64,000 bases of DNA from Eledone cirrhosa. Its lineage: Eukaryota. Within the stretch, counting starts at the first letter, position 1. Each line of letters begins with the position of its first letter. A model generated the notes under the pieces. That model ran no database searches. It was not told the DNA's origin and saw only the letters and a program-made list of their open reading frames with translations. The stretch spans positions 337,962,001-338,026,000 of the forward strand of contig OZ024741.1 in assembly GCA_964016885.1 (NCBI GenBank), written 5' to 3'. Of this stretch, positions 28,397 through 31,118 are shown piece by piece. Made by a program: the position numbers and the translations under genes.

Positions 28397-31118
28397 CTCT
28401 TCAAACCAGTTCCTGTACACAGCTAAGTATTCTATAAGTCTCTAGCTGTGTCATTCTCGATAAAAGCACTGGATATGTAGTCCTGAAGATTTCTAATAAG
28501 AATGAAACGCGTAGATTACTTCCCTTGCTTTTATCGAGAATCTAATTGTAATACGTGACGTATTCTATTCTATAGCGATTAGGTCTTCAAAATGTTTATT
28601 ATAAACATACAGAATATTTTCGAATATTCTATGTCTATATTCACATATATATCGCTATTTCAGAGCATTTATTCCAATTTCTAATTTCTGCCGGACCGGC
28701 AACCGCTCTTTCAAACCAGTTCCTGTACACAGCTAAGTATTCTATAAGTCTCTAGCTGTGTCATTCTCGATAAAGCACTGGATATGTAGTCCTGAAGATT
28801 TCTAATAAGAATGAAACGCGTAGATTACTTCCTTGCTTTTATCGAGAATCTAATTGTAATACGTGACGTATTCTATTCTATAGCGATTAGGTCTTCAAAA
28901 TGTTTATTATAAACATACAGAATATTTTCGAATATTCTATGTCTATATTCACATATATATCGCTATTTCAGAGCATTTATTCCAATTTCTAATTTCTGCC
29001 GGACCGGCAACCGCTCTTTCAAACCAGTTCCTGTACACAGCTAAGTATTCTATAAGTCTCTAGCTGTGTCATTCTCGATAAAAGCACTGGATATGTAGTC
29101 CTGAAGATTTCTAATAAGAATGAAACGCGTAGATTACTTCCCTTGCTTTTATCGAGAATCTAATTGTAATACGTGACGTATTCTATTCTATAGCGATTAG
29201 GTCTTCAAAATGTTTATTATAAACATACAGAATATTTTCGAATATTCTATGTCTATATTCACATATATATCGCTATTTCAGAGCATTTATTCCAATTTCT
29301 AATTTCTGCCGACCGGCAACCGCTCTTTCAAACCAGTTCCTGTACACAGCTAAGTATTCTATAAGTCTCTAGCTGTGTCATTCTCGATAAAAGCACTGGA
29401 TATGTAGTCCTGAAGATTTCTAATAAGAATGAAACGCGTAGATTACTTCCCTTGCTTTTATCGAGAATCTAATTGTAATACGTGACGTATTCTATTCTAT
29501 AGCGATTAGGTCTTCAAAATGTTTATTATAAACATACAGAATATTTTCGAATATTCTATGTCTATATTCACATATATATCGCTATTTCAGAGCATTTATT
29601 CCAATTTCTAATTTCTGCCGGGACCGGCAACCGCTCTTTCAAACCAGTTCCTGTACACAGCTAAGTATTCTATAAGTCTCTAGCTGTGTCATTCTCGATA
29701 AAAGCACTGGATATGTAGTCCTGAAGATTTCTAATAAGAATGAAACGCGTAGATTACTTCCCTTGCTTTTATCGAGAATCTAATTGTAATACGTGACGTA
29801 TTCTATTCTATAGCGATTAGGTCTTCAAAATGTTTATATAAACATACAGAATATTTTCGAATATTCTATGTCTATATTCACATATATATCGCTATTTCAG
29901 AGCATTTATTCCAATTTCTAATTTCTGCCGGACCGGCAACCGCTCTTTCAAACCAGTTCCTGTACACAGCTAAGTATTCTATAAGTCTCTAGCTGTGTCA
30001 TTCTCGATAAAAGCACTGGATATGTAGTCCTGAAGATTTCTAATAAGAATGAAACGCGTAGATTACTTCCCTTGCTTTTATCGAGAATCTAATTGTAATA
30101 CGTGACGTATTCTATTCTATAGCGATTAGGTCTTCAAAATGTTTATTATAAACATACCAGAATATTTTCGAATATTCTATGTCTATATTCACATATATAT
30201 CGCTATTTCAGAGCATTTATTCCAATTTCTAATTTCTGCCGGACGGCAACCGCTCTTTCAAACCAGTTCCTGTACACAGCTAAGTATTCTATAAGTCTCT
30301 AGCTGTGTCATTCTCGATAAAAGCACTGGATATGTAGTCCTGAAGATTTCTAATAAGAATGAAACGCGTAGATTACTTCCTTGCTTTTATCGAGAATCTA
30401 ATTGTAATACGTGACGTATTCTATTCTATAGCGATTAGGTCTTCAAAATGTTTATTATAAACATACAGAATATTTTCGAATATTCTATGTCTATATTCAC
30501 ATATATATCGCTATTTCAGAGCATTTATTCCAATTTCTAATTTCTGCGGACCGGCAACCGCTCTTTCAAACCAGTTCCTGTACACAGCTAAGTATTCTAT
30601 AAGTCTCTAGCTGTGTCATTCTCGATAAAAGCACTGGATATGTAGTCCTGAAGATTTCTAATAAGAATGAAACGCGTAGATTACTTCCCTTGCTTTTATC
30701 GAGAATCTAATTGTAATACGTGACGTATTCTATTCTATAGCGATTAGGTCTTCAAAATGTTTATTATAAACATACAGAATATTTTCGAATATTCTATGTC
30801 TATATTCACATATATATCGCTATTTCAGAGCATTTATTCCAATTTCTAATTTCTGCCGGACCGGCAACCGCTCTTTCAAACCAGTTCCTGTACACAGCTA
30901 AGTATTCTATAAGTCTCTAGCTGTGTCATTCTCGATAAAAGCACTGGATATGTAGTCCTGAAGATTTCTAATAAGAATGAAACGCGTAGATTACTTCCCT
31001 TGCTTTTATCGAGAATCTAATTGTAATACGTGACGTATTCTATTCTATAGCGATTAGGTCTTCAAAATGTTTATTATAAACATACAGAATATTTTCGAAT
31101 ATTCTATGTCTATATTCA
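28397..31118 (+). repeat. Tandem array of about 310-bp HHR units, about 8.8 near-identical copies (retrozyme-like family H)
   Basis: tcaaaccagttcctg recurs at 28401, 28711, 29019, 29328, 29639 and onward. Confidence 0.97.
28477..28519 (+). ncRNA. Type I HHR family H (one per unit, 9 copies)
   Basis: gtagtc-CTGAAGA-t-ttct(aata)agaa-t-GAAA-cgcg-TA-gattac; 15-bp outer stem ttctcgataaaagca/tgcttttatcgagaa (28454-28540). Confidence 0.92.

What the first reader, a model, noticed from the sequence alone, without database searches (positions are those of the whole stretch)
28397..31118. Homogeneous nine-ribozyme 310-bp array
The units differ almost only by single-base indels. Each has an HHR inside a 15-bp clamp plus further hairpins. 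Transcription would give about 310-nt monomers able to circularise. This is the best candidate here for a currently active retrozyme.
Basis: partly seen in the sequence, partly recalled or inferred. Interest (0 to 1): 0.75.

Follow-up and report, generated by a model that had tools for sequence, protein, structure and literature searches.

The report
Ribozyme repeat with Penelope insertion marks
This is one of well over a thousand scattered insertions of a protein-free 310-base repeat that carries a predicted self-cutting RNA motif, and the fixed ends and shared mutations of its copies suggest it is likely pasted into TA repeats by a Penelope-type jumping-gene enzyme copying a single RNA unit, likely a circle, round and round.

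Summary
The array is real: 8.8 head-to-tail 310-bp units, nine type I hammerhead motifs, a 16-bp clamp, (TA)n on both sides. Its only differences are nine 1-nt indels, probably assembly noise (50 of 78 family arrays have none). It is one ordinary, one-armed copy of a young family with at least 1,245 insertions. Most insertions are two back-to-back arms. One arm ends at unit position ~242-251, the other 30-40 nt further on (54 of 54 pairs; 27 of 27 picked by one end): the Penelope 'tail' signature. Both arms share one haplotype (60 of 63; chance 0.11), and variants fixed across an array keep the ribozyme's pairs (7 of 7 against 5 of 22 singletons). Best reading: a non-LTR retrozyme mobilised by a Penelope-like RT that primes both target ends on one RNA unit, likely a circle. 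Expression, cleavage and circles are untested; the ribozyme looks dimer-dependent; the helper is only indirectly suggested. The kind is known. The scan noted this same family before on other pieces of this genome (e1-8671497, e1-8671559).

The parts
28397..31118 (+). one-armed insertion of the 310-bp retrozyme: 8.8 tandem units, 5' end at unit position ~305, 3' end at the family's short end (unit position 242)
28477..28519 (+). type I hammerhead of unit 1: stem I 28477-28482 with 28514-28519, core CUGAAGA 28483-28489, helix II with U.U at its base, GAAA 28504-28507, palindromic helix III, predicted cut after 28513; identical motifs start their cores at 28792, 29101, 29410, 29721, 30030, 30340, 30648, 30958
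   Evidence: dimer duplex of helix III -9.5 kcal/mol
28453..28541 (+). 16-bp clamp helix enclosing the hammerhead (28453-28468 with 28526-28541)
   Evidence: fixed variants A61G, A62G and A132G keep the pairs
28417..28451 (+). predicted hairpin upstream of the clamp
   Evidence: prediction only
28582..28710 (+). 3' module shared with sister families: two hairpins (28592-28608; 28612-28629), internal TA run, tail segment; candidate RT-recognition and start region (inferred)
   Evidence: about 75% identity to the 316-bp family; 3 pairs with two-sided changes among 7 sequences of about 2 families; 19,581 exact matches of a tail pattern in the genome
28643..28678 (+). the 'tail' in unit 1: between the short end (unit position 242-251) and the main long end (277; also 272-284) of family insertions
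28271..28396 (.). (TA)n target, left flank
31119..31596 (.). (TA)n target, right flank

Best explanation
This array is one insertion of a young, protein-free 310-bp repeat family with a predicted type I hammerhead ribozyme in every unit (a non-LTR retrozyme), whose copies sit in (TA)n as tandem arms ending at two fixed sites and are likely made by a Penelope-like RT/GIY-YIG enzyme copying one RNA unit, likely a circle, round and round. Proposed cycle: (1) arrays are transcribed (not shown); (2) hammerheads cut, probably as dimers, to give 310-nt monomers that a host ligase would close (inferred from coral, mussel and axolotl); (3) the enzyme nicks both strands of a (TA)n target and primes one end at unit position ~242-251 and the other at ~277 on the same RNA (ends shown; enzyme inferred); (4) both cDNAs run for 0.1 to 27 units and join at short overlaps, giving back-to-back arms (structure shown; process inferred). 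In this copy the second arm is missing. Odds by step: retrozyme 0.93, Penelope-type mobilisation 0.9, both arms from one RNA 0.9, circular monomer template 0.65.
For: Family size: 1,540 exact copies of this hammerhead variant; 1,041 long-end and 1,245 short-end junctions with (TA)n. End rule: on the first 218.5 Mb of C1, 54 of 54 divergent end pairs within 20 kb are long plus short (81 long, 100 short ends). In a first sample of 32 two-armed arrays, 30 are short plus long, 1 is cut by Ns and 1 reads 261/276. Of 40 arrays picked by one end, 29 were called two-armed and 27 of the 27 with both ends in view are short plus long. This matches the 30-40 bp one-sided tail, inverted 5' copy and (TA)n bias of Penelope-like elements (PMC8557442) and the two RT start sites with both strands extended in vitro (PMC11167929). 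An intact 1218-aa Penelope-like ORF family in this genome makes the same short and long ends. One template: 60 of 63 two-armed arrays have the same majority haplotype in both arms (27 haplotypes, chance 0.11), and 16 of 70 arrays of 3 or more units carry a substitution fixed in all units and in no other sampled array. RNA-level constraint: 7 of 7 fixed variants at paired or core positions keep pairing, against 5 of 22 singletons (Fisher p = 5e-4). Three apparent hybrids join this family to a 424-bp family and that family to the intact Penelope-like element, each with one short and one long end.
Against: L055 has two outer units of one haplotype and inner units of another in both arms, which fits a linear multimer or a double template switch better than one circle. 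Common haplotypes are shared by many arrays (13 + 13 of 63), so homogeneous source arrays exist and could give homogeneous linear multimers; 54 of 70 arrays have no private fixed change. In the anole element, hammerhead cleavage is not needed for insertion and unprocessed RNA is the main substrate. The hammerhead has weak-type features. No autonomous element sharing sequence with the unit was found. One of the three hybrids (L200) has a TA run at its joint and may be two separate insertions. Thirteen loci were found by an exact hammerhead pattern, which biases towards conserved ribozymes, and most arrays come from one chromosome.
Confidence: 0.66

Rival explanations
1. A non-autonomous Penelope-like element that moves as a long, uncut multimeric transcript; both target ends are primed near its 3' end, and the hammerhead is a relic of the pseudo-LTR or serves another step.
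For: Symmetric haplotype switch in L055; weak-type ribozyme; cleavage dispensable in vitro for the anole element; many homogeneous source arrays exist; non-autonomous Chlamys elements make multicopy head-to-tail insertions (PMC8557442).
Against: Private variants fixed through whole arrays (16 of 70) need a one-unit bottleneck; singleton variants are not mirrored between arms in the arrays listed; fixed variants keep the ribozyme stems and clamp; arms of up to 27 units would need transcripts over 8 kb with 27 uncut ribozymes.
Confidence: 0.23
2. Short Penelope-type insertions (one or two units) that later grew into arrays by unequal crossing-over or other DNA-level amplification, as minisatellites do.
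For: Proposed by Li et al. 2026; a few variants recur in 2 units of one arm (12 partial cases).
Against: Both arms are usually long and share one haplotype, higher-order patterns are nearly absent, arrays are dispersed with a median span of 2.4 kb, and the family is at most a few percent diverged. It cannot explain the end rule, only array length.
Confidence: 0.08
3. The inverted arm is a fold-back copy of a single cDNA, not a second priming event.
For: A few junctions lie at nearly the same unit position in both arms (192/189, 199/199, 226/229), and it would explain shared haplotypes.
Against: Either the short-end or the long-end arm can be much the longer (1.2 against 27.3 units; 15.7 against 1.0), most junction positions are unrelated, singleton changes are not mirrored, and apparent hybrids carry two different RNAs.
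Confidence: 0.03

Closest known systems
Metazoan non-LTR retrozymes (Cervera and de la Pena 2020, PMC7229834; read: parts 2-4 of 6, supplement not read)
   Same: 150-450 bp non-coding tandem units, low GC, one type I hammerhead each, self-paired fold. U.U at the base of helix II as in axolotl HHR_Amex2; 1-bp helix III with a palindromic tetraloop as in HHR_Amex1 and newt satellite 2.
   Different: In the parts read, no two-armed insertions, fixed end pairs or (TA)n targeting are described, and Penelope mobilisation and tandem cDNA from circles are proposed, not shown. Here the RNA is untested.
Vertebrate retrozymes as Penelope derivatives (Li, Clavereau and Pollet 2026, bioRxiv 10.64898/2026.07.22.740005; read: parts 1-3 of 5, supplements closed)
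   Same: Same kind of element, co-occurring with Penelope-like elements.
   Different: Their link is co-occurrence and pseudo-LTR homology. Here it is the insertion footprint; no pseudo-LTR homologue of this unit was found.
EN+ Penelope-like elements (Craig et al. 2021, PMC8557442, passages; Frangieh et al. 2024, PMC11167929, parts 1-2 of 4)
   Same: Inverted 5'-truncated arm, 30-40 bp tail at one end, (TA)n targets, hammerhead upstream of the ends, two internal RT start sites.
   Different: No ORF; the whole element is one 310-bp unit repeated up to 27 times per arm; the short start lies in an internal TA run that could pair with the target, whereas the anole element starts without homology.
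L1 twin priming (recalled, not read here)
   Same: Both target ends prime on one RNA and the cDNAs join at short overlaps to give an inversion.
   Different: In L1 the second site is variable and the arms cover different parts of the RNA. Here both sites are fixed and the arms copy the same sequence repeatedly.

Membership tests
non-LTR retrozyme | short non-coding tandem unit of 150-450 bp, low GC, no LTR | tested here: met
   310 bp, 34% GC, no ORF of 120 aa within the array body
non-LTR retrozyme | type I hammerhead motif in each unit | tested here: met
   nine motifs with full core and stems; pair-keeping variation; below Rfam thresholds
non-LTR retrozyme | dispersed multi-locus family | tested here: met
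   at least 1,245 end junctions; arrays on many contigs
non-LTR retrozyme | self-cleavage of the transcript | not testable with these tools
   needs in vitro transcription; weak-type helix II and III
non-LTR retrozyme | expressed as linear and circular monomer RNA | not testable with these tools
   no run on record as RNA was available for laying
element mobilised by EN+ Penelope-like machinery | inverted 5'-truncated arm and a 30-40 bp tail at one end only | tested here: met
   54 of 54, 27 of 27, 30 of 32; this particular copy has only the short-end arm
element mobilised by EN+ Penelope-like machinery | (TA)n microsatellite targets | tested here: met
   flanks
element mobilised by EN+ Penelope-like machinery | sequence shared with the pseudo-LTR of an autonomous partner | tested here: inconclusive
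   none with the two ORF-bearing families examined or a third family with a similar hammerhead; other families not examined; indirect hybrids
autonomous Penelope-like element | RT plus GIY-YIG ORF | tested here: not met
   none in the array or joined to it

The most novel reading that the evidence does not exclude
Each insertion is a genomic record of rolling-circle reverse transcription: a dimeric Penelope-like enzyme primes both cut ends of a (TA)n target at two fixed sites on one 310-nt ribozyme RNA circle and writes two back-to-back concatemers. A two-hairpin module shared by sister families is the enzyme's landing site, and the intact 1218-aa element in this window is the helper.
Probability: 0.45. 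Interest if true: 0.75.

Novelty: new member of a known kind. Interest (0 to 1): 0.52.

Why it matters
Two open questions meet here. How animal retrozymes get back into genomes has been proposed (circle plus Penelope RT) but not shown, and how Penelope-like elements make their inverted, one-tailed insertions is unresolved. This family gives exact predictions: two start sites on a 310-nt RNA, a (TA)n target, a candidate intact enzyme in the same genome, and concatemer products. The in vitro assay already published for the anole element could test them directly. I did not find the two-armed retrozyme footprint in print in five full-text searches; these miss most subscription papers and repeat-database entries. 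The array itself is an ordinary copy.

Tried and rejected
Expression: no RNA holder listed, which is no evidence either way. Three runs of unknown kind gave one self-joined 340-nt contig of the unit. The same runs also hold scattered pieces of the Penelope-like ORF at about a third of that depth, so the contig is most simply a collapsed tandem repeat from trace DNA; not counted as a circle. Helper search: two ORF-bearing Penelope-like families share no sequence with the unit; a family with a similar hammerhead (20,682 matches) showed no RT-like ORF in 20 loci; 40 arrays picked by one end held no direct joint to either ORF family. RNA editing: private fixed changes are 5 A>G against 5 T>C, so no strand bias; A78G on several backgrounds is only a hint. 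A conserved reading frame in the 3' module was considered and dropped, because the frames differ between sister families (read). Pfam found no domain in three Penelope-like ORF pieces; their class rests on visible RT and GIY-YIG motifs (recalled), on their structure and on unnamed homologues; the clade was not tested. Higher-order periodicity suspected from identities was not borne out. A sequence look-up of earlier scan findings returned nothing. Rows left out of counts: the second copy of the duplicated L050 insertion, overlapping loci of one array, the segmentally repeated C14 and C1071 loci, sister-family loci, and L047 (under 250 aligned bases at 90% or not in the unit table).

Full report
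Observation. The stretch 28397-31118 is a tandem array of a 310-bp unit, 8.8 copies, 99% matched, between two (TA)n runs. I number positions on the unit at 30567-30876. Every unit carries the same type I hammerhead motif: a 6-bp stem I, core CUGAAGA, helix II with a U.U pair at its base, GAAA, and a palindromic helix III, with the predicted cut after position 112 (28513 in unit 1). A 16-bp helix encloses it, and a unit folds at z = -4.9. Rfam does not reach threshold. The eight full units show no substitution and nine 1-nt indels. Since 50 of 78 family arrays have no indel at all, these are probably residual sequencing errors; that is inference.

Ribozyme type. Helix III can form only one pair plus a palindromic tetraloop in a monomer, but a 6-bp duplex between two units (-9.5 kcal/mol). 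In axolotl, one retrozyme ribozyme has that helix III, the other has the U.U pair, and both cut weakly as monomers and well as dimers (PMC7229834). A dimer-dependent ribozyme would leave monomers stable. Activity is untested, and 8 of 9 predicted Xenopus dimers did not cut.

Family. The genome (3.0 Gb, unnamed; other scan notes call it octopus, which I did not test) holds 1,540 exact copies of this hammerhead variant, 19,581 matches to a tail pattern shared with sister families, and 1,041 long-end and 1,245 short-end junctions to (TA)n. The window's haplotype is a minority one. The array is not special within its family.

Insertion footprint. Most insertions are two arms back to back, each read outwards into (TA)n. 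One arm stops at position 242-251, inside an internal TA run, and the other at 277 (range 272-284). In 32 two-armed arrays of a first sample, 30 show one end of each kind, one is cut by Ns and one reads 261/276. On C1 up to 218.5 Mb, all 54 divergent end pairs within 20 kb are long plus short, from 81 long and 100 short ends. Among 40 arrays picked by one end only, 29 were called two-armed, 27 had both ends in view, and all 27 obeyed the rule; 11 were called one-armed, a few with a very short second arm. Arms run from 0.1 to 27 units, either can be the longer, and junctions fall at unrelated positions, mostly with short overlaps. This is the Penelope-like pattern: inverted 5' copy, 30-40 bp tail at one end, microsatellite bias (PMC8557442, passages), and two internal RT starts with both target strands cut and extended (PMC11167929). 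The window's copy has only the short-end arm.

One RNA unit per insertion. In 60 of 63 two-armed arrays both arms have the same majority haplotype, against 0.11 expected from 27 haplotypes; two exceptions are singletons in short arms and the third is L055. In 16 of 70 arrays of three or more units a substitution is fixed in every unit and in no other sampled array. Of 39 fixed variants, 7 fall on paired or core positions and all keep pairing; of 136 singletons, 22 fall there and 5 keep it (p = 5e-4). Thirteen loci were found by an exact hammerhead pattern, which biases this test. Diversity between arrays with uniformity within them needs a one-unit bottleneck, and arms longer than one unit then need a circle or repeated jumping on a monomer. 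Against this: L055 switches haplotype after two outer units in both arms, and homogeneous source arrays could supply homogeneous linear multimers. I put the circle at 0.65.

Cis module and helper. The last 130 nt of the unit are about 75% identical to the 316-bp family at 35633-36447, which has a different hammerhead. Two hairpins just upstream of the short end show two-sided changes at 3 pairs among 7 sequences from about two families, a small sample. No autonomous element with this sequence was found. A young Penelope-like family with intact 1218-aa ORFs (pieces at 3146-4348 and 38991-40454) inserts in (TA)n with its own short and long ends, 45-58 nt apart. Three apparent hybrids link them: that element's short end with a 424-bp family long end (window 2627-6123, direct joint), this family's short end with a 424 long end (L041), and this family's long end with a 424 short end (L200, TA at the joint). 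This makes it a candidate helper, on thin and indirect evidence; its tail is longer than this family's.

Comparison and verdict. It works like, and on all testable features is, a metazoan non-LTR retrozyme (PMC7229834; bioRxiv 10.64898/2026.07.22.740005); cleavage and circles remain untested. The kind is known, and Penelope mobilisation is already proposed. What this family adds is a footprint that turns the proposal into exact tests; five searches did not find it in print, and supplements of the two retrozyme papers, which I did not see, may bear on that. Earlier scan notes reach the same reading for this family and others. I had the end rule and haplotype pattern before opening them; they gave me the leads on hybrids and editing. 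New member of a known kind; interest 0.52.

Noticed in passing
window 2627-6123: Apparent hybrid: a truncated Penelope-like element (minus strand, short end) joined directly, head to head, to 3.5 units of a 424-bp hammerhead repeat (plus strand, long end).
   Followed up: partly
window 35633-36447 (-), with a short inverted arm to about 36615: 316-bp sister family: same 3' module, but a hammerhead with a U3-A8 core variant inside its own clamp.
   Followed up: partly
window 38185-41092; L106-L110: Young Penelope-like family with intact 1218-aa ORFs at 98-99% identity, two-armed, in (TA)n; candidate helper.
   Followed up: partly
window 19032-21960; L123-L129: Second Penelope-like family with a long 3' UTR and a canonical hammerhead at 21775.
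   Followed up: partly
window 27108-28030, 52831-52902, 58013-58822, 22113-22183: About 419-bp family with a hammerhead whose helix II carries a long insertion; also inverted and in (TA)n.
   Followed up: no
window 28060-28260; similar in L106, L127, L148: Short perfect inverted-repeat element in (TA)n, probably a very short two-armed insertion of another family.
   Followed up: no
L130-L149: Family with a hammerhead close to this one (same U.U base of helix II), 20,682 matches, its own short and long ends about 66 nt apart, no RT-like ORF seen in 20 loci.
   Followed up: partly
L055 (G000:C1:136719500-136725900): Both arms start with two units of one haplotype and continue with another; possible record of a template switch or of a linear multimer.
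   Followed up: partly
window 42540-42790: Inverted pair of another hammerhead motif between TA runs.
   Followed up: no
window 16370-19390, 22924-24924, 47245-50382, 59576-62805: LINE-type ORFs with AP endonuclease and RT (Pfam hits for the first three); 47245-50382 is an open frame of 1045 aa.
   Followed up: no
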